From the human T2T-CHM13v2.0 reference genome, Homo sapiens: DNA of 64,000 nucleotides. The position numbers were made by a program, and so were the translations under genes. Numbering within the stretch: position 1 is the first letter of the stretch; every line of letters begins with the position of its first letter. The stretch is from assembly GCF_009914755.1 (NCBI RefSeq), contig NC_060928.1. The stretch is one strand, 5' to 3'. The notes beneath the pieces are model-generated. The model made no database searches, was not told where the DNA came from, and saw only the letters and a list, made by a program, of their open reading frames with translations. Below, piece after piece: positions 4,901-59,879 of the stretch.

Positions 4901-5635
4901 CAAAAAATGCAACAGGTGTTCAGAAAGAATCTGAAAAATGACTATCTATGTGTATATATATGTATGTATAATTTATATCTTATATATGTATATATACACA
5001 TTTGCATATATACATATTATATATATGTTCCACATTCATTTTAAGTAATGAGAGAGAGTGGTAAGAACCATGGCTACACAGGTTTATGGCTTTTGAAAAT
5101 AGATTTTGTTGCATTCTTTGTCTTGGGATACCACTGAAGGAATTAAAGTACTAATGAACCTTAATAACCTAATCAGACTTTCCAGTTTCTTTTTTCCTGC
5201 TTGTTCATTTATTGGAGTTTGGCTAGGTTTCATCAGGGTGAGAGAGGTGAAGAGGAGAATTAAATAAACCAAGAGAGGCTGGATTACACTATTTAAGAAA
5301 AATATAGAAGGAGGTGATGAGGCAGACAGGAGCAAGTGGGAGCCTCCTTTCCTTGAAAAATACAAAGACATGAGATCATGAAGCTGGGCCTTAGAAGATG
5401 TGTCATTTTTGATCTTTCTTTTTTTATTATTATTGTACTTTACGTTCTAGGGTACATGTGCACAACATGCAGGTTTGTTACATATGTATACATGTGTCAT
5501 GTTGGTTTGCTGTACCCGTTAACTCATCATGTACATTAGGCATATCTCCTAATGCTATCCCTCCCCCATCCCCTCACCCCATGACAGGCCCCGGTGTGTG
5601 ATGTTTCCTACCCTGTGTCCAAGCGTTCTCATTGT

Positions 5636-9455
<3,820 letters not shown>

Positions 9456-20004: not shown

Positions 20005-20921
20005 CTTTTTTTTTTTTTGGAGTCAGATAAACCTGCATTTATTTTTTTATTTTTTTTTAGAATTGGTTCATGAGTTTAATTTTTTTTATTATACTTTAAG
20101 TTCTAGGGTACATGTGCACAACATGCAGGTTTGTTACATATGTATACATGTGCCATGTTGTTGTGCTGCACCCATTAACTCATCATTTACATTAGGCATC
20201 CTCCTAATGCTGTCCCTCCCCCATCCCCCCACCCCACAATAGGCCCCGGTATGTGATGTTCCCCTTCCTGTGTCCAAGTGTTCTCATTGTTCAGTTCCCA
20301 CCTATAAGTGAGAACATGCGGTGTTTGGTTTTTTGTCCCTGCCATAGTTTGCTGAGAATGATGGTTTCCAGTTTCATCCATGACCCTACAAAGGACATGA
20401 ACTCATCATTTTTTATGGCTGCATAGTATTTCATGGTGTATATATGCCACATTTTCTTAATCCAGTCTATCATTGTTGGACATTCGGGTTGGTTTCAAGT
20501 CTTTGCTATTGTGAATAATGCCGCAGTAAACATACGTGTGCATGTGTCTTTATAGCAGCATGATTTATAATCCTTTGGGTATATACCCAGTAATGGGATG
20601 GCTGGGTCAAATGGTATTTCTAGTTCTAGATCCCTGAGGAATCACCAAGCTGACTTCCACAATGGTTGAACTAGTTTACAGTCCCACCAACAGTGTAAAA
20701 GTGTTCCTATTTCTCCACATCCTCTCCAGCACCTGTTGTTTCCTGACTTTTTAATGATCGCCATTCTAACTGGTGTGAGATGGTATATCATTGTGGTTTT
20801 GATTTGCATTTCTCTGATGGCCAGTGACGATGAGCATTTTTTCATGTGTCTGTTGGCTGCATAAATGTCTTCTTTTGAGAAGTGTCTGTTCATATCCTTT
20901 GCCCACTTTTTGATGGGGTTG
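20005..20921 (-). mobile_element. 5'-truncated L1PA4/5-like element with extended (transduced) 3' tail
   Basis: ORF2 C-terminus (…[13 protein letters not shown]…SLIGGN) and 3'UTR at 20088-20921. Three T-tracts at 20006-20087. Candidate TSD attctt at 19999-20004 and 20922-20927. Confidence 0.93.
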
Positions 20922-21019
20922 ATTCTTATTGCTGGTGTTTCGTTTTTATCTGCAAACTGGATAGTCATAATTTAAAGGACCTCTACAAAAGATAATTTCG
21001 TTGACTACAGTTAATTTTG

Positions 21020-51230: not shown

Positions 51231-52363
51231 TTAGTATTCATCATGAATGGCTAGAAATAATCCCACTTGTCTATCCCATTACACATAGTTTATATGGTTT
51301 CTTTTGTTTGTATTTAGGTTCCCAGGCCATGTAAAAGCTTCTCAAAATCAAGAAACATTATATATCATTTGTATATACAACTGTATATCATTGGACTGCA
51401 TGGCATGCACAAAATCAATTCTCATTCTGTCAATAAAAGCGGCTACACAACATATTTCTTTAACCATATATCTTTATTTCAGAATCCAAACAGTGTAGCA
51501 AAAATATAACTAAGCTATAAAGGATCAGCCCCTTCTTCAGCCTTGATGTGCCATGTTCTTTCTACTTGTATACTCTTGATTCGTAGCACAATAGAATATA
51601 TGTTGTTTTTAGGGTAGTAATGTCCTTCCCCTTACAAAAAGACAAACTCTTTTAGTATTACAAGTGGATCTTAATAATGGAAGGATGATTTTAAAACCAC
51701 CTGATATTATAGTGCCATTCATATAACTAAAGCTCTCACTCCAGTAATATCCCATAACTTTAGGTTGTAGAGAATCAGGCAGATTAATTCTATTTCTTCC
51801 AAACTCTACTCTTACTTTCCATGTAACTTTAATGGCCCATTTATAATATGAACTTTTCAGAGAACTAATGAGACCCTGGTGATGTTTACTTTATTTAATT
51901 CTGATTATCACATTCAATAGCACTTATAAGTCATTTCACATTTATTAGTGACTAATATATACTATGCATAGATATTTAATGTAATATGTCATAAATGTCT
52001 AACATATATTATTAGTAGCTGGATTCCCCAACTGAATTCTGTATAATGAAGTAACAAGGTGTTCCGTGGCTTATTAGTAGTTCTTTACACATAAAATATA
52101 CTCAGCTAAAGTGTGTTGGTAAAATCCATGATGCTGATAATATGTTTCTTTTTGTTTGGTTGATTTTTTCATGTATCAGTTATTTAACTATGTTACTGGT
52201 AAGAAATTTATAATACCAATTTCTAAGAATAAGCTTCGTTTTTCAGGCCAAACAGGTTGCAGGTATCCCTGGAGCTGAGGAATAGCTTTGGTTTTTGGTA
52301 AAATTTGCGGGTCCACAGCTGCCTGGTCAACCTTGCCCTGCTCTGTCATCTCATATTTCTTTC

Positions 52364-52662
<299 letters not shown>

Positions 52663-53339
52663 TTCTCATATTTCTTTCTTTGTGCCAAAGACGTCACCAT
52701 CTGTTGTCTGGGCTTCCACAGCTGTTTCTTCCTGAAGTAAGCCTCAGTAAGATGTTTTGAGATTTCCACATTGCTGATATCAATTTTTGTGGTGGTGGTG
52801 ATGACAATTTCTTCAGTGCTCTACACAGAGGAACTTGATTGAGGATCCAAGTTTCAGTCAATAACAAGCAGCAAAACACTGCTCAGCTGCTTCAGGAAAA
52901 CCACCTGTTTGCTTCGATGGCACCCAGTGAAGATGAGCAGAATGTTCCCAGGAGAGATGATGGCTCACAGTTTTCTCATATGCTGACTGGAGTGTTTTTT
53001 ACCATGGCTCAATAGCCCTAAAGGCACATCATCTACTGATGTGCCTAGGCATTTTGCAAAGTTTAACCACATGGGTACCACTATTCTGGTCACTACCAAC
53101 TGGTTTTGTAACCATAGCAAGGACCTCCTTCTCTTTCTTTTTAATCCTGGATTTATCGGCTGAGTACTTCCTTTTGCCCATGGCCTTTCTGGAATACATA
53201 GCAGATCAGGAATACCTGCGAATTCCCCTGAAAAAGGCAAGATCTCAGTTGCGGTGGGACTTTGCCTTCTTGGGCATTTTAGCCTTGAGGTCACTTTTTT
53301 CAACCTTCCCACTGCCATCAGCCTTCTTGGCTTCAGGCT

Positions 53340-53569
53340 TGTTTATAAATAAGCTATTTTCCAGATGTTCCAATAAGACTCTTGAATATCTGGGTAAAAA
53401 GGAGATTAAAGGCTGGTAGTCACAGGACAGAAGAGCAAAATATAAAGGAACATGAACTAAAATTAATGGCATGCTTCTTTTCCCTCTACTTTCACAGACT
53501 TTCATTAATGTAAATAAGAAAGTGTTTTTAGCTTCTTTTAAATAAAGATATTGGTCTATAAAAATAATT
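53340..53569 (+). repeat. 230-bp dispersed duplication, inserted copy
   Basis: Matches 56348-56577 with 4 substitutions and no indels (offset 3008). Confidence 0.97.
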
Positions 53570-54748
53570 TTCCTTAGTATCCAGCTTCTCAGTTGTTTCC
53601 ACAACCATCTTGCAAGATGGGGACGGGCCTGATAATATGCTTAAAAAACAAAAAGAAAGCTACTAATATAACCAAAACAAAAAAAACAAATACATGAAAA
53701 AATAAATCCAATCTAGTCCATTTAACTTCTATGTAAATTAAAAATAAATGTAAAAATGGCATGTGCACAATTCAGCCCCCTTGAAAATCTTATCACTAAT
53801 TTTCCTTCCCCTTAATTGATATTTTAAAGCCACATAAAGTCATTCTATTTTCAAGTCTTTCAGAAGACTACAGAATTTTGACCTTTCTACCTTGAGTATC
53901 TGTTAACCAAAAGAACAGAAGATGAAAATATTTATTGATTACATTGACTTTATTTCACTTATGGAATATACACTTAAATATTAGCTGCTATAATTCTTCT
54001 CCTATTCTCTTACTGTTACTATTTTTAGTGTCTAAGAAGCAAATTTTGCTTTATTTCTCTTTTCGTTTCCTCCATTGCCTCCATAGCCACAAATATAACA
54101 GATTAGAAAGTAGTTGATTTAGTTAAATAATCCTCAGTTAAAGGAATCCTTATGTGCAGAAAAGCCTTCAGCAAGAGATTTTATGGCCTGGAAGGCATCA
54201 GATTCCTCATTTACTTCCATATACAGCCATAAACTAACAGATCTCAGTCATGTGTTATCATACTTAAAGTTTCACTGTTGCAGGTTGATTTCTTTAGTTT
54301 ATCCATTGCCTTTCCAGGCATCCCCTAATACAGAAAACAAACTAAGGTATAACGTTATTTCTTCATACTTTGCTCAAAGAATGCCAAGTCTACCACCTTC
54401 ATGTGATCCCTAAAGCAAGTGAATTCACTCTTAACTGTCACACTGGAGATCTGTATAACACACCCAGGCCAGAGGGTAAAATATCCAACTGTCCACTGCT
54501 AGAAATGTTATGAAAAGCCAATTAAGAAAAGTAATATGTATTGAGGTTTCTTAGAAGACTTAGAATCTACATAGACTCAATTATTTTCAGGGATCAAACT
54601 GAGCCATAAGAAAGTTGCTCAACTGGGCCCTATTATTTTGTCCTCTACAGAATCACTCCCCCTTAAGTTGTGTGTTAATGTAGGCTTTGGATTTCATCAG
54701 GAAGCAATACCAAGAATAGCCTATCAGAACCAATATATGTATTTGCTA

Positions 54749-55010
<262 letters not shown>

Positions 55011-55527
55011 ATGTAGATGACTTCTTCTATGTTTGCTTTATATAAAGTCCCATTAAAACAAAACAAAACAAAAACACATTATTTTAGAATAAGTACCAGG
55101 AAAAATTTTGCTTCCCTTAAGAAATGTTATACATTTTATTCAAAGACATGGAGAACTATATAAACAATCATTTTGTCTTATTGCTTTAAGACTTAGATAA
55201 TCAAAGCCAAAATCTCAGGGCAGAAATAACACCTGCATGAAACTTTATGTGCTGAATAATATATATTCCATTTTTCTTCCATGCCATGTTGACAATCTAT
55301 TCTACTTTCTATTTTCTATGGTTTTCTTCACTGCATTAATTTTCAGTTTCCCGTCTCTGTAGAATAAAGCAAACTATATATTTTTTAACAGCAGACAAAA
55401 TAGGATTATTTATTTCTTCATGGGAATTATACAGCCAGTTGTTTTGGTTTTGTTCCTAATAAAGATTCTGCATGTGAACAAGTTAAGAAACAGAAAAATG
55501 GAAAGTGAAAGAAATGAACTTGGAGAA

Positions 55528-56082
55528 TACAGCAGGCAGCTTCCAACATGACCCCCGAAACTTCCCTTCACTTCCTAGTATTCATACCCTTACAAAATCT
55601 CCTCCACCTGAGTCTGGGTGGAACCTGTGACTTGCTTTTAACAGCATATGGCAAAGATTGTGGGATAGCATTTCTGTGATTAGGTTACATAAGATAGTGA
55701 CTTCTGCCTTTCTTACAGGCTCTTTCTCTCTTACTAGTTTGATGAGGTAAGTTGCATGTTCCCACACTGCAATGAACAAAAGGTGGTTGTGGTCTCCAGC
55801 CAATAGCCATCAAGAACTCAGGCCCTCAGTCTCACAGTCTTTGGAAAATTAAATCCTACCACAACCATGATAATAAGCTTGAAAATTAATTTGTCCCCAG
55901 TCAAGCCTTCAGATGAGACTCCAACACTGGCCAACACTTGATCACAGCTTTGTGAAAGACCCTGAACAGAGCGTTCGGTTAACCCATTCCCAGATTCCTA
56001 ACCCTCAGAAATTATGAGAATGAATTTGTGTTGCTTTTAGCCAATGAGTGGTAATTTGTTATACAGCAATAAGAAACTAATT
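55528..56082 (+). mobile_element. MLT1E/F-like MaLR LTR
   Basis: 'ctgtgattaggttacataagat', 'ccccagtcaagccttcagatgagact', 'gtggtaatttgttatacagcaata'. Confidence 0.85.
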
Positions 56083-56347
56083 GGAAAAATGCCCATATAT
56101 TTTACTTATTTCATAATTTTACTCGTGACCAGCCTTGCTTTGTGGTTATATTAACGCATTAGGAAATATGTTGGGGTGAATAAAAAGTGAATAATTTACC
56201 CTTCTCTTTTTTTTCTATCAATCCAGAAAGTATTATCAATTATTTTATCAATTTATTTTTATAAATCACAGTAATGTCACTCCTTTTCTGTTTTTTAATT
56301 CCATTTGTAAAGCTATATCTTATAGAAGATTATAATTCTTAAAATCA

Positions 56348-56577
56348 TGTTTATAAATAAGCTATTTTCCAGATGTTCCAATAAGACCCTTGAATATCTG
56401 GGTAAAAAGGAGATTAAAGGCTGGTAGTCAGAGGACAGAAGAGCAAAATATAAAGGAACATGAACTAAAATTAACGGCATGCTTCTTTTCCCTCTACTTT
56501 CACAGACTTTCATTAATGTAAATAAGAAAGTGTTTTCAGCTTCTTTTAAATAAAGATATTGGTCTATAAAAATAATT
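56348..56577 (+). repeat. 230-bp dispersed duplication, presumed donor copy
   Basis: Same sequence as 53340-53569, embedded in unique AT-rich DNA. Confidence 0.95.
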
Positions 56578-56784
56578 ATATTTCTTTGATAATTAATACA
56601 GTCTTTGAGTCCTAATATTACCACTGGAAACTCTTTTTTGCAATGCAGCATAATTGAAGCATGCATGTTGTTAAATCTGCAGGAGGTTAGTTATTTTATT
56701 ATCTAATACTGTTCATTATACATACTATACTTCTGAAAAAATGGTTATGTTGTCTGCTTCTGTAATACTTTTTCCAAAAGTTAG

Positions 56785-57222
<438 letters not shown>

Positions 57223-59879
57223 TGACTTCTTCGGTCTTTTTACAACAGACTTCAGATTGCAATGCAGTTAAAATTAATTACTTAGCCAAACAAGATAGGA
57301 GTTTGACTCTGTGTTCTTTGCTCTCCTTTTCAGCCTCTGTGGAAGACTTGATAACTTCTGTGCTCTAGAAACTTCTAATTGAGCATGAAGAAAGCTGGTA
57401 AATCACTGCACTGTAGCAACAGCAATCCAGTGTTTTCTCTGCCTAATGATCCTAAAGCTGATTCAATATATGTTCGTCATCAGAAATCTTTACAATGTTC
57501 AAGGCATATTTATCAGAATTTGGAATAAGCTTGCACAAATTCCCTCTTGCAACATTCTATAGCTTAGCTCAATTCCTTTCTCTTTGTATAGATCAGTGAA
57601 GTGCCAGAAGATTTACTATGAGTAAACAACTTTAGATATAAGATTTGCAGGACTTTAATATCAGACACCTGCTGGTCATATAATTGAAATTATCTACACT
57701 GAAGTAGAAACTAGTTTACCAATTATGTTTCTTTTTATGGTCCCAAACCTCATACTCATCTATATCTATATTACTAGTTTGCTAGCTAGCAATTTCTGCT
57801 ACTCATTATTTCTATCCTGCTACTTTCATAAAAGTTTGGATTGATTTCAGAGCAGTTACACCAACAAATAATGATAAAGTAGAAATATGTGCATTGGGCA
57901 GCTTCTGAGATTGAATGTGCTCACTAAATCTTTGTAGAAATCTTCCTGGATTACCTATCTACCCTTCCAATTATTCTCTATTACTGCACCTGTAACTTTT
58001 CAAAACCCAGGATTACAACAGTTATTTATCTGCCAAATTTTGTGTCTCCCCTTCAATGTAAGTGCCATAAGTACAAGGACTCTGTGTTTAGGTATGTGTG
58101 AGCTATTCACAATTATAATGGAACAGTGAGAATAAGTCACTAAAGATATCAGTGTCTGGCATGTAATAATAACAGCAGATCAGTCAATATGTTATTAAAT
58201 ATTTAAACTATGGGGAAATGGGAAAAGAGAAGGCTATTGCCTAGGTAAATATCAGTGCCATGATGATGGGCCATGGTAGCTTGTTTCACTGGCACATGTT
58301 TCATTGAACCAAGCTTCTGCAAAGGCTTGGTCTCAGCACCTGGAAAAGCAGTCAATTGAAAAGATATAGTGGTGGTGTGGGTGCTGCAGGAGATGTCACT
58401 CTAGAGCTTGCAAACAGCAAATGGCACCACTGAGGCATCCATGCCACGTTACCTGGTACTCAGATTCACTGACAATAGAAAACCTTCATAAAATCACATC
58501 TAGAGTCTCCAAGGTTAGCAGTAGAAGATGAGTAATAACATGGAAGTTAAGATTTTATTTTCCTAACAGAAATCATCAAGGAAGTTCTGAGGTTGAAGAG
58601 ATATTCTTAAGAGACAAATATATCTCCATGAAAAAAAATAAGACTTTGAGGCCCATTTCCTCTTCCTGTCTCTGCTGCAAACCTTGATGATTAAAATATT
58701 TAGGAAGTAAAAGATTTCACGACTGTGAGACTTCTTGATGACCTATGAAATCAAGAGCTCCGAGAGCTAAAGAAAATTTAAAAATCATGTCTTGCATCAC
58801 CTGAAGGGTGTCCTCCCCACCCTTTAACCCTCAATGAGATCTTGAATGCTAGCTAGAGTTTTAAAAATTGGTGGATGGAGCTGTGTGTTGTTTCATCATT
58901 TGCACCCCAACTGTATATCCATCTGATGAAGCTTGGAAAATATACTTGTTAAAAAAAAAGAATTAAATCAAGAGACACATAAAATAAAATAGCAGAAGGC
59001 CAGGATAGAGAACAGGTAAAAGCAATTGTTGCAATGCCTATATAGTTTTTACGGCTGCAATACAAATATGTCTCCGAGCTTCCAAACAGCTAAAAAAAAA
59101 AAAAAAAACCTGTCTTTTTGAGAAATAAAAATAACTCTTAAGAAAAAACTGTCTTCCAAACACTTAATTTTATGTAACATATTCATGGAACAAAATAAAA
59201 TAAAAATCTTACCCTTTGCTTTATTTACTGACTTTCAACTGTTTATACTAATCCTATTTTTTCATTGAATTATTCATCTAAAAACAAAAGTAAATTGACA
59301 ATTACTACCCAAATTTGACTTAGGTAAAATCAATACATGCTAACAAATAACTATGCCAACATTTTCTTTTATATAACTATACCAAACAATGCTTTGTACT
59401 GTCGATGGAAGTTTTCAAAAGAATGATTTTCATCATGTTGACCTTTGATAGCCACAAAATTCAATTAAGCGATGAAAAACTCCAGTATCATGTAATCATA
59501 AGACAGTCAGTGACTTTAATAATCAAAAGAAGTCTACCTTTACCTTTCTTTTTGATAAATGAGTAGATGGTCATAATATGGTTTTCTTCAGTATTGTTTA
59601 GTCAGTAAATGCTAAAAAGTTTTTCCTCCTTTTTCATAAACTATAAAAAAATTGTGTTTGTTATCCATCTAGTCAAAATGCCAGATAATAAAGGTCCTTC
59701 TTAAAATGGGTAAACATAAGAAACCTCAGAATTGTTTTATTGGGTTCAGTGAAAAAGAAACATAAACAATCTTAAAATGCCAGTTAGAGTATGGGCAGAG
59801 AGATGGGCATGAATTGAAGGCAACATGAATTACTGATGTCAGTACTACCCCTTCTGGCATTTAATCGTGCAAGAACAGT

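What the first reader, a model, noticed from the sequence alone, without database searches (positions are those of the whole stretch)
53340..53569. 230-bp locally templated insertion copied from 3 kb downstream into the RPL6 pseudogene
Seen: 53340-53569 equals 56348-56577 in the same orientation, with 4 mismatches in 230 bp and no indels. It splits RPL6 between …DTKE and KPEAKK… with at most a few bases lost. There is no TSD, no poly(A), no TE hallmark, and only 1-2 nt of junction microhomology (t; tt). Because RPL6 is continuous across it, the direction of copying (56.4 kb to 53.4 kb) is clear. The copies are far closer to each other than the pseudogene is to RPL6, so the event is recent. Inference: a germline double-strand break patched by synthesis from a nearby template (SDSA, template switching or polymerase theta), probably hominid-specific. 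The direct repeats could also seed a 3-kb NAHR deletion. This is the most unusual feature of the window.
Basis: partly seen in the sequence, partly recalled or inferred. Interest (0 to 1): 0.8.

Follow-up and report, generated by a model that had tools for sequence, protein, structure and literature searches.

The report
Local 230-bp copy inside RPL6 pseudogene
A 230-base stretch of unique DNA was copied from 3 kb away into an old, dead copy of the ribosomal protein L6 gene, most likely during repair of a break or a replication slip; it is a clean but ordinary example of a known kind of mutation.

Summary
53340-53569 and 56348-56577 are ungapped direct repeats with 4 mismatches in 230 nt. They are the only two copies found in the whole assembly.

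The first copy interrupts the minus-strand processed pseudogene RPL6P11. All 29 other RPL6 copies examined read straight through the site. Only 1 nt is lost if the junction microhomologies (1 nt and 2 nt) are counted as RPL6, and 4 nt otherwise. There is no target-site duplication and no poly(A). An Alu in the same pseudogene does have a 16-nt duplication and a poly(T) tract.

The pseudogene is 18.9% diverged from RPL6 exons. The two copies differ by 1.7%. So the insertion is much younger than the pseudogene, unless gene conversion has homogenised the copies.

Best reading: a DNA-templated local insertion (dispersed duplication) made by template switching or microhomology-primed repair synthesis. 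Capture of a cDNA patch or of a free DNA fragment is not excluded.

Lineage specificity could not be tested because no primate genomes were available. The kind of event is well described in print. The locus is neutral (a pseudogene in an lncRNA intron), so interest is low to moderate.

The parts
53340..53569 (+). Inserted copy of the 230-nt segment, inside RPL6P11
   Evidence: 226 of 230 identical to 56348-56577, with no gaps; absent from 29 of 29 other RPL6 loci.
56348..56577 (+). Donor (template) segment in otherwise single-copy DNA
   Evidence: the donor with its flanks (56100-56775) matches only itself and, over 56348-56577, the insert; the nearest multi-copy repeat is 55900-56086, which is 260 nt away.
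53340..53340 (.). Left junction: 1-nt microhomology (T). It fits both the RPL6 Lys codon and the first donor base.
53568..53569 (.). Right junction: 2-nt microhomology (TT). It fits both the interrupted RPL6 Lys codon and the last two donor bases.
   Evidence: If these bases are counted as RPL6, only one base of the pseudogene (third base of the Lys codon) is missing.
53570..53627 (-). 5' piece of the RPL6 pseudogene: about 19 nt of 5'UTR, ATG at 53608-53606, then codons up to ...DTKE. It lies outside the RefSeq span of RPL6P11.
   Evidence: translation; alignment by eye to 29 RPL6 loci. The 5' end at about 53627 is my reading, give or take a few nt.
52680..53339 (-). Middle part of the RPL6 pseudogene, from KPEAKK... 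down to the Alu
   Evidence: 80-82% identical to RPL6 exons on contig 12.
52349..52679 (-). Alu inside the pseudogene, with a 16-nt target-site duplication (52349-52364 = 52664-52679) and a poly(T) tract on the + strand. It serves as an internal contrast to the 230-nt insert.
   Evidence: read directly. One search found 12 nt of the TSD in a clipped window. Searches show Alu-to-Alu matches.
52164..52348 (-). 3' part of the RPL6 pseudogene
   Evidence: 193 nt at 81.3% to the last RPL6 exon. The start at 52164 is taken from the supplied RefSeq table.
53541..53546 (+). AATAAA hexamer 23 nt upstream of the insert's + strand 3' end (donor equivalent 56549-56554). It is the only hint of an RNA intermediate.
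   Evidence: a random position has such a hexamer ending 10-30 nt upstream in 2.7% (+ strand) or 3.6% (- strand) of cases.

Best explanation
A DNA-templated local insertion, that is, a small dispersed duplication. A break or a stalled nascent strand arose inside the old RPL6 pseudogene, in the Lys codon between ...DTKE and KPEAKK. A free 3' end paired through 1-2 nt with single-copy DNA 3 kb away on the same chromosome. It copied 227-230 nt, came off, and was rejoined to the other side through another 1-2 nt. One to four bases of the target were lost, and the donor stayed intact. This matches template switching of the FoSTeS/MMBIR type, or microhomology-primed synthesis-dependent end joining.

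Shown here: the two copies, the direction of copying, the junction anatomy, the two-copy status, and the young age relative to the pseudogene.

Inferred: that the template was DNA and not RNA, that the event was replicative or repair synthesis, and that it happened in the germline (it is in a reference assembly).

The insert has no evident function. It lies in a dead retrocopy within an intron of a predicted lncRNA.
For: Donor and insert lie on the same strand, 3008 nt apart, out of a 3.1-Gb genome. Such closeness is what a proximity-dependent copying mechanism predicts. It would be very improbable for a patch drawn from the genome at large.

The donor is intact and sits in unique sequence. 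The junctions are clean, with 1-nt and 2-nt microhomology and no filler bases. Target loss is 1-4 nt.

There is no TSD and no poly(A). The Alu 650 nt away in the same pseudogene shows both.

Copy divergence is 1.74% (JC 0.018). Pseudogene-to-parent divergence is 18.9% (JC 0.218) over 778 nt. This separates the event from the retrotransposition itself.

Print: templated insertions are described as local or distant, from a few nt to over 1 Mb, with 0-20 nt of junction microhomology (PMC11724301, passages read). Template switching to a nearby template is described in the abstract starts of PMC8421209 and PMC7954356.
Against: The microhomologies are minimal. By the standard blunt-join expectation P(k) = (k+1)(1/4)^k(3/4)^2 (my calculation, no tool call), about 44% of random junctions show at least 1 nt and about 16% show at least 2 nt. 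The junctions therefore do not favour template switching over plain end joining.

The MMBIR-type insertions catalogued in PMC8421209 are short, inverted and templated within 100 bp. This one is 230 nt, direct and 3 kb away.

The insert's + strand end lies 23 nt after an AATAAA, which is what an RNA 3' end would look like.

No outgroup was available. The four differences cannot be polarised, and error-prone synthesis cannot be tested. No hairpin or palindrome of note lies at the breakpoints (energies of -2.9 to -5.4 kcal/mol for the four 50-81-nt breakpoint stretches, z from -3.0 to +0.9).
Confidence: 0.65

Rival explanations
1. An RNA-derived patch, like a class 2 templated sequence insertion. 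A local + strand transcript ending near 56577 was reverse-transcribed, for example by L1 ORF2p acting without its endonuclease. The primer would be a broken DNA end pairing through the terminal UU. The cDNA was then joined into the break.
For: The junction features match class 2 TSIPs as described: no TSD, no poly(A), microdeletion and microhomology (PMC5110952, section 9). The insert's + strand end lies 23 nt downstream of AATAAA, which happens by chance in about 3% of cases per strand end. The region lies inside a predicted lncRNA gene (supplied table), so some transcription is plausible.
Against: Class 2 donors are described as distant genomic regions (abstract). Here the donor is 3 kb away. 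There are no untemplated A residues, although a cleaved RNA would normally be polyadenylated. The annotated lncRNA is on the minus strand, whereas the AATAAA is on the plus strand. No + strand transcript is known to me or listed in the table. With two possible ends, the AATAAA coincidence has about a 6% chance.
Confidence: 0.12
2. Capture by non-homologous end joining of a free double-stranded DNA fragment. The fragment would be a by-product of replication nearby (over-replicated DNA, or a long flap of about Okazaki-fragment size), ligated into a break in the pseudogene.
For: Microhomology of 0-2 nt and a 1-4 nt loss are typical of end joining. Passages in PMC11724301 describe templated insertions at breaks that rise when flap nucleases (Dna2, Rad27) are lacking, and link them to over-replicated DNA or long 5' flaps. 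That 230 nt is near Okazaki-fragment size is recalled knowledge.
Against: In that work the fragments come from all over the genome, so the 3-kb proximity needs a further assumption. A free fragment has a 50% chance of either orientation, so the direct orientation carries no information. No sequence feature specific to this route exists to test.
Confidence: 0.12
3. The insertion is old, possibly close in age to the pseudogene, and the 98% identity reflects later gene conversion between the two copies. This rival concerns the date, not the mechanism.
For: Direct repeats of 230 nt lying 3 kb apart can in principle exchange sequence (general knowledge). The date rests on only 4 differences.
Against: Conversion would need to have kept the full 230 nt homogeneous right to both sharp edges, while the pseudogene flanks accumulated about 19% change. 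The differences are evenly spaced, giving identical tracts of 40, 42, 43, 61 and 40 nt, with no mosaic of old and young blocks.
Confidence: 0.08
4. An assembly artefact or a multi-copy repeat family.
For: None found.
Against: The copies differ at 4 sites and have unique, unrelated flanks. Only two copies exist in the genome. The assembly is a telomere-to-telomere one according to the supplied table.
Confidence: 0.02

Closest known systems
Local templated insertions / dispersed (non-tandem) duplications from template switching (FoSTeS/MMBIR) or synthesis-dependent end joining
   Same: The donor is intact and is duplicated to a nearby site on the same chromosome. Junction microhomology falls within the 0-20 nt range. 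There are no transposon hallmarks (PMC11724301 passages; PMC8421209).
   Different: The microhomology is at the low end (1 and 2 nt). The insert is direct, 230 nt long and 3 kb from its template. The catalogued MMB-TI events are short, inverted and within 100 bp. The event stands alone and is not part of a larger copy-number change.
Class 2 templated sequence insertion polymorphisms (Onozawa and Aplan, PMC5110952)
   Same: No TSD and no poly(A). Microdeletion and microhomology at the junctions. The donor is retained. It is read as the patch of a germline double-strand break.
   Different: Those donors are distant and are thought to be RNA-derived. Here the donor is 3 kb away, and an RNA origin is neither shown nor needed. 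Whether this insert is polymorphic is unknown.
Class 1 TSIPs / L1 ORF2p-mediated trans-insertions (processed pseudogenes, Alu)
   Same: An AATAAA lies 23 nt before the insert's end. The host pseudogene and the Alu within it are products of this machinery.
   Different: No TSD of 5 nt or more, no poly(A) tract, and no TTTT/A target. The defining features are not met.

Membership tests
Templated insertion (local, DNA-templated; template switching or repair synthesis) | The inserted sequence matches another genomic locus that remains intact | tested here: met
   226 of 230 identical, and the donor is present within unique flanks.
Templated insertion (local, DNA-templated; template switching or repair synthesis) | The recipient is continuous across the site apart from a small loss | tested here: met
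   29 of 29 other RPL6 loci are uninterrupted. 1-4 nt are missing in the window.
Templated insertion (local, DNA-templated; template switching or repair synthesis) | Microhomology at both junctions | tested here: inconclusive
   1 nt and 2 nt are present, but this is near the level expected for random joins (my calculation).
Templated insertion (local, DNA-templated; template switching or repair synthesis) | The template lies nearby on the same chromosome | tested here: met
   3008 nt away on the same strand. There is no other copy in 3.1 Gb.
Templated insertion (local, DNA-templated; template switching or repair synthesis) | Extra point changes made during error-prone synthesis | not testable with these tools
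   Three of the 4 differences are C in the donor and T in the insert. Without an outgroup they cannot be assigned to a copy or to the time of the event.
L1 ORF2p-mediated insertion (class 1 TSIP, retrocopy) | Target-site duplication of at least 5 bp at the junctions | tested here: not met
   the longest shared flank word is 5 nt, away from the junctions. 966 of 2000 random pairs equal or exceed it.
L1 ORF2p-mediated insertion (class 1 TSIP, retrocopy) | Untemplated poly(A) tract at the 3' end | tested here: not met
   the insert matches the donor to its last base, and RPL6 sequence follows directly.
L1 ORF2p-mediated insertion (class 1 TSIP, retrocopy) | Poly(A) signal 10-30 nt upstream of the 3' end | tested here: met
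   AATAAA at 53541-53546, with the insert ending 23 nt later. The chance level is about 3% per strand end, so this is weak on its own.
Class 2 TSIP (RNA-derived break patch) | Donor in a distant genomic region, with an RNA intermediate | tested here: not met
   The donor is 3 kb away. An RNA intermediate is not testable here, since there is no splice junction and no expression data.
Interspersed repeat / transposable element | Many copies in the genome | tested here: not met
   2 of 2 candidates. In one search, 38 of the 40 scored hits fall only in query 1-187, a different and old repeat.
Tandem duplication | The copies abut each other | tested here: not met
   2778 nt of unrelated sequence, including the pseudogene 5' piece, lie between the copies.
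Structured RNA gene | Match to a described RNA family | tested here: not met
   0 Rfam matches in 51500-58000.

The most novel reading that the evidence does not exclude
The insert is a cDNA of a local, unannotated + strand transcript that ended at a cryptic poly(A) site (AATAAA 23 nt upstream). It was reverse-transcribed at a chromosomal break from RNA still held near its own gene. That would make it a germline example of a break patched in cis from nearby nascent RNA, and not from a distant transcript.
Probability: 0.1. Interest if true: 0.5.

Novelty: new member of a known kind. Interest (0 to 1): 0.25.

Why it matters
The insertion is a cleanly resolved natural footprint of kb-range templated insertion in the human germline.

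- The direction of copying is fixed by an independent reference: the RPL6 mRNA sequence preserved in dozens of other retrocopies.
- Both junctions are known to the base.
- The same pseudogene holds a canonical Alu insertion for contrast.

Such cases help to calibrate how often, and over what distances, repair synthesis copies nearby DNA. Orthologous primate loci would date this one and polarise the four differences, which would test whether the synthesis was error-prone.

It also shows that the RefSeq span of RPL6P11 stops 5 nt short of the insert and so misses the 58-nt 5' end.

No gene or known element is affected, so no phenotypic effect is expected.

Tried and rejected
- Transposon or multi-copy repeat: rejected.
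- L1-mediated insertion: rejected for lack of a TSD and poly(A). The contrast is the Alu's 16-nt TSD.
- Co-insertion with the retrocopy through reverse-transcriptase template jumping: rejected on divergence, 1.7% against 18.9%, unless gene conversion acted.
- Homology-driven invasion using the two same-orientation Alus (52365-52663 and about 56776-57130): considered and rejected by reasoning. Synthesis primed from the Alu would run away from the donor, and the pseudogene between the Alu and the break is intact.
- Secondary structure at the breakpoints: nothing notable.
- RNA families: none.
- A protein search of solved structures with 53245-53339 used the wrong frame and gave only a chance hit. 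I replaced it with the DNA comparison to other RPL6 loci.
I dropped it, so the rarity of such events per megabase is not measured here.
- Abyzov et al. 2015 on templated micro-insertions is not held and is not used.
- 'RPL6P11' occurs in 0 papers of the searched library.

Full report
**1. The observation**

The sequence at 53340-53569 and at 56348-56577 was read directly and compared.
- The repeat finder reports one two-copy direct family of 230 nt at 98% identity, 3008 nt apart.
- A base-by-base comparison finds 4 mismatches and no gaps: 53380 T / 56388 C, 53423 C / 56431 G, 53467 T / 56475 C (the donor base sits in a CpG) and 53529 T / 56537 C.
- Forty nt beyond each end, the two places are unrelated.
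- In the whole 64-kb window this is the most similar repeat pair. The other 6 direct families and 12 inverted pairs are at most 93% identical and fall in stretches that the supplied table lists as masked repeats.

**2. Copy number**
- A search of the window's own 3.1-Gb assembly with the 230-mer gave 2 candidates. Both were scored and both are these two places (E = 4e-114 and 1e-108).
- With 676 nt of donor context (56100-56775) there were again 2 of 2 candidates: the query itself and the insert. The insert matched query 249-478, which is exactly 56348-56577.
- With 881 nt (55900-56780), 40 of 238 candidates were scored. Beyond those two, the other 38 all matched only query 1-187, an old interspersed repeat at 55900-56086 with 69-88% identity.
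- The tool warns that its counts are lower bounds and that very common words are skipped.

Within that limit, the 230-mer is not a repeat family and the donor lies in unique DNA.

**3. The host**

The minus strand around the insert is a processed RPL6 pseudogene.
- A 340-nt piece (53000-53339) matches 33 other places at 72-82% identity. These include two exons of the parent gene on contig 12 at 82%.
- I fetched the parent region. Five exon-level matches cover 196, 98, 116, 175 and 193 nt at 80.2-81.6% identity. Together that is 778 nt at 81.1%, a Jukes-Cantor distance of 0.218.
- From that sum I left out a 22-nt perfect match, a 43-nt second-site match and all the Alu-to-Alu matches.
- The minus strand reads M-V-V-E-T-T-E-K-L-D-T-K-E from 53608 down to 53570 and K-P-E-A-K-K... 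from 53339.
- By comparison with the 5' ends of other copies, the retrocopy starts at about 53627. The RefSeq span of RPL6P11 (52164..53334) stops 5 nt before the insert and omits this 58-nt 5' piece.

**4. The junctions**

I took the 29 other RPL6 loci (L004-L032, including the parent exon in L028) and printed the 70 nt upstream of the point matching window 53339. All 29 carry the RPL6 5' sequence directly abutting. Most read ...GATACTAAAGAGAAGA|AACC(C/T)GAAGCC.

The window reads GATACTAAGGAA, then the insert, then AGCCTGAAGCC. On the sense strand the first two bases of the insert (AA, the complement of TT at 53569-53568) and its last base (A, the complement of T at 53340) also fit RPL6.
- If these three bases are credited to RPL6, 227 nt were added and a single base, the third position of a Lys codon, was lost.
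- If they are credited to the donor, 4 nt were lost.

There are no filler bases. By the usual expectation for random blunt joins, microhomology of 1 and 2 nt is not clearly above chance (my calculation). It is therefore compatible both with microhomology-primed synthesis and with plain end joining.

**5. No transposition hallmarks**
- The longest word shared by the two flanks is 5 nt (CTTCT at 53323 and 53585), and it is not at the junctions. 966 of 2000 random flank pairs from 50-59 kb share 5 nt or more.
- The insert matches the donor to its last base, so there is no poly(A).
- By contrast, the Alu 650 nt away in the same pseudogene has a 16-nt target-site duplication (52349-52364 = 52664-52679) and a poly(T) run of about 24 nt on the + strand.
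- Rfam finds nothing in 51500-58000.
- DNA folding of the breakpoint regions shows only weak structures: energies of -2.9 to -5.4 kcal/mol, z from -3.0 to +0.9.

**6. Timing**

The copies differ at 4 of 230 sites. That is 1.74%, with an exact Poisson 95% interval of 0.47-4.45%. The pseudogene differs from the RPL6 exons by 18.9%. The insertion therefore came long after retrotransposition, which rules out a template jump by the reverse transcriptase during retrocopy formation.

By recalled species divergences (human-chimpanzee about 1.2%, human-gorilla about 1.6%, human-orangutan about 3%, human-macaque about 6%), the point estimate sits near the gorilla split. The interval runs from human-only to before the orangutan split. 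Gene conversion between the copies would bias the estimate towards youth. The evenly spaced differences (identical tracts of 40, 42, 43, 61 and 40 nt) and the sharp edges give no sign of it.

No primate genome is reachable with these tools, so 'hominid-specific' remains untested.

**7. Mechanism**

The most telling fact is proximity. Out of 3.1 Gb, the only other copy lies 3 kb away on the same strand. That points to a copying process limited by distance: a nascent or broken 3' end that switches to a nearby template and returns. This could be template switching of the FoSTeS/MMBIR type, or synthesis-dependent end joining.

The literature describes templated insertions as local or distant, from a few nt to over 1 Mb, with 0-20 nt of junction microhomology (PMC11724301, passages). 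It describes template switching to nearby templates as a source of rearrangements (PMC8421209, abstract start in the listing and passages; PMC7954356, abstract start only). The MMBIR-type insertions catalogued by PMC8421209 are short, inverted and within 100 bp, so this event is at the long, direct, kb-range end of the class.

Two rivals remain.
- **cDNA patch.** Class 2 templated sequence insertions share the junction features, namely no TSD, no poly(A), microdeletion and microhomology (PMC5110952: abstract, and sections 5, 8 and 9). The insert's + strand end lies 23 nt after an AATAAA, which happens by chance about 3% of the time per strand end. Against this, there is no A tail, the annotated lncRNA is on the other strand, and class 2 donors are described as distant.
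- **Free DNA fragment.** End joining may have captured a replication by-product (PMC11724301 passages on Dna2 and Rad27). Sequence alone cannot exclude this.

I put DNA-templated switching or repair synthesis at 0.65 and each of these two rivals at about 0.12. Three of the four differences are C in the donor and T in the insert. That might reflect error-prone synthesis or damage to single-stranded DNA, but with no outgroup and n = 4 it is only a note.

**8. Consequences and verdict**

The two direct repeats could in principle mediate a 3-kb deletion or duplication. With 61 nt as the longest identical tract, this is a weak substrate (the judgement rests on general knowledge). No gene or annotated element is affected.

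The core interpretation is the best-supported one, but neither the specific pathway nor the lineage is shown. The event belongs to a well-known class. 'RPL6P11' appears in 0 papers of the searched library, so this particular locus seems undescribed.

A planned calibration of how common such events are in the flanking 400 kb could not be run.

Interest: 0.25.

Noticed in passing
window 53570-53627 (- strand): The RefSeq span of RPL6P11 (52164..53334) ends 5 nt before the insert. It omits the pseudogene's 5'UTR, ATG (53608-53606) and first 13 codons, which lie beyond the insert. The retrocopy looks full-length.
   Followed up: yes
window 52349-52679: An Alu in minus orientation lies inside the pseudogene. 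It has a 16-nt target-site duplication (TCTCATATTTCTTTCT) and a poly(T) tract of about 24 nt. It is a textbook L1-mediated insertion next to the non-canonical one.
   Followed up: yes
window 53380, 53467, 53529 versus 56388, 56475, 56537: Three of the four differences between the copies are T in the insert and C in the donor, all on the same strand, and one is at a donor CpG. They cannot be polarised without an outgroup. This may be chance.
   Followed up: partly
window 55900-56086: An old interspersed repeat of about 185 nt lies 260 nt upstream of the donor. It is 69-88% identical to at least 38 other loci across the genome. The family was not named here.
   Followed up: no
window 5419-6280 and 20075-20936: Three collinear direct-repeat blocks (125, 300 and 200 nt; 90-93% identical; spacing 14655-14656 nt) lie within stretches listed as masked. 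They are probably two copies of the same interspersed element. This was not examined.
   Followed up: no
window 53541-53546 / 56549-56554: An AATAAA hexamer lies 23 nt before the end of the copied segment on the + strand. No + strand transcript is annotated here.
   Followed up: partly
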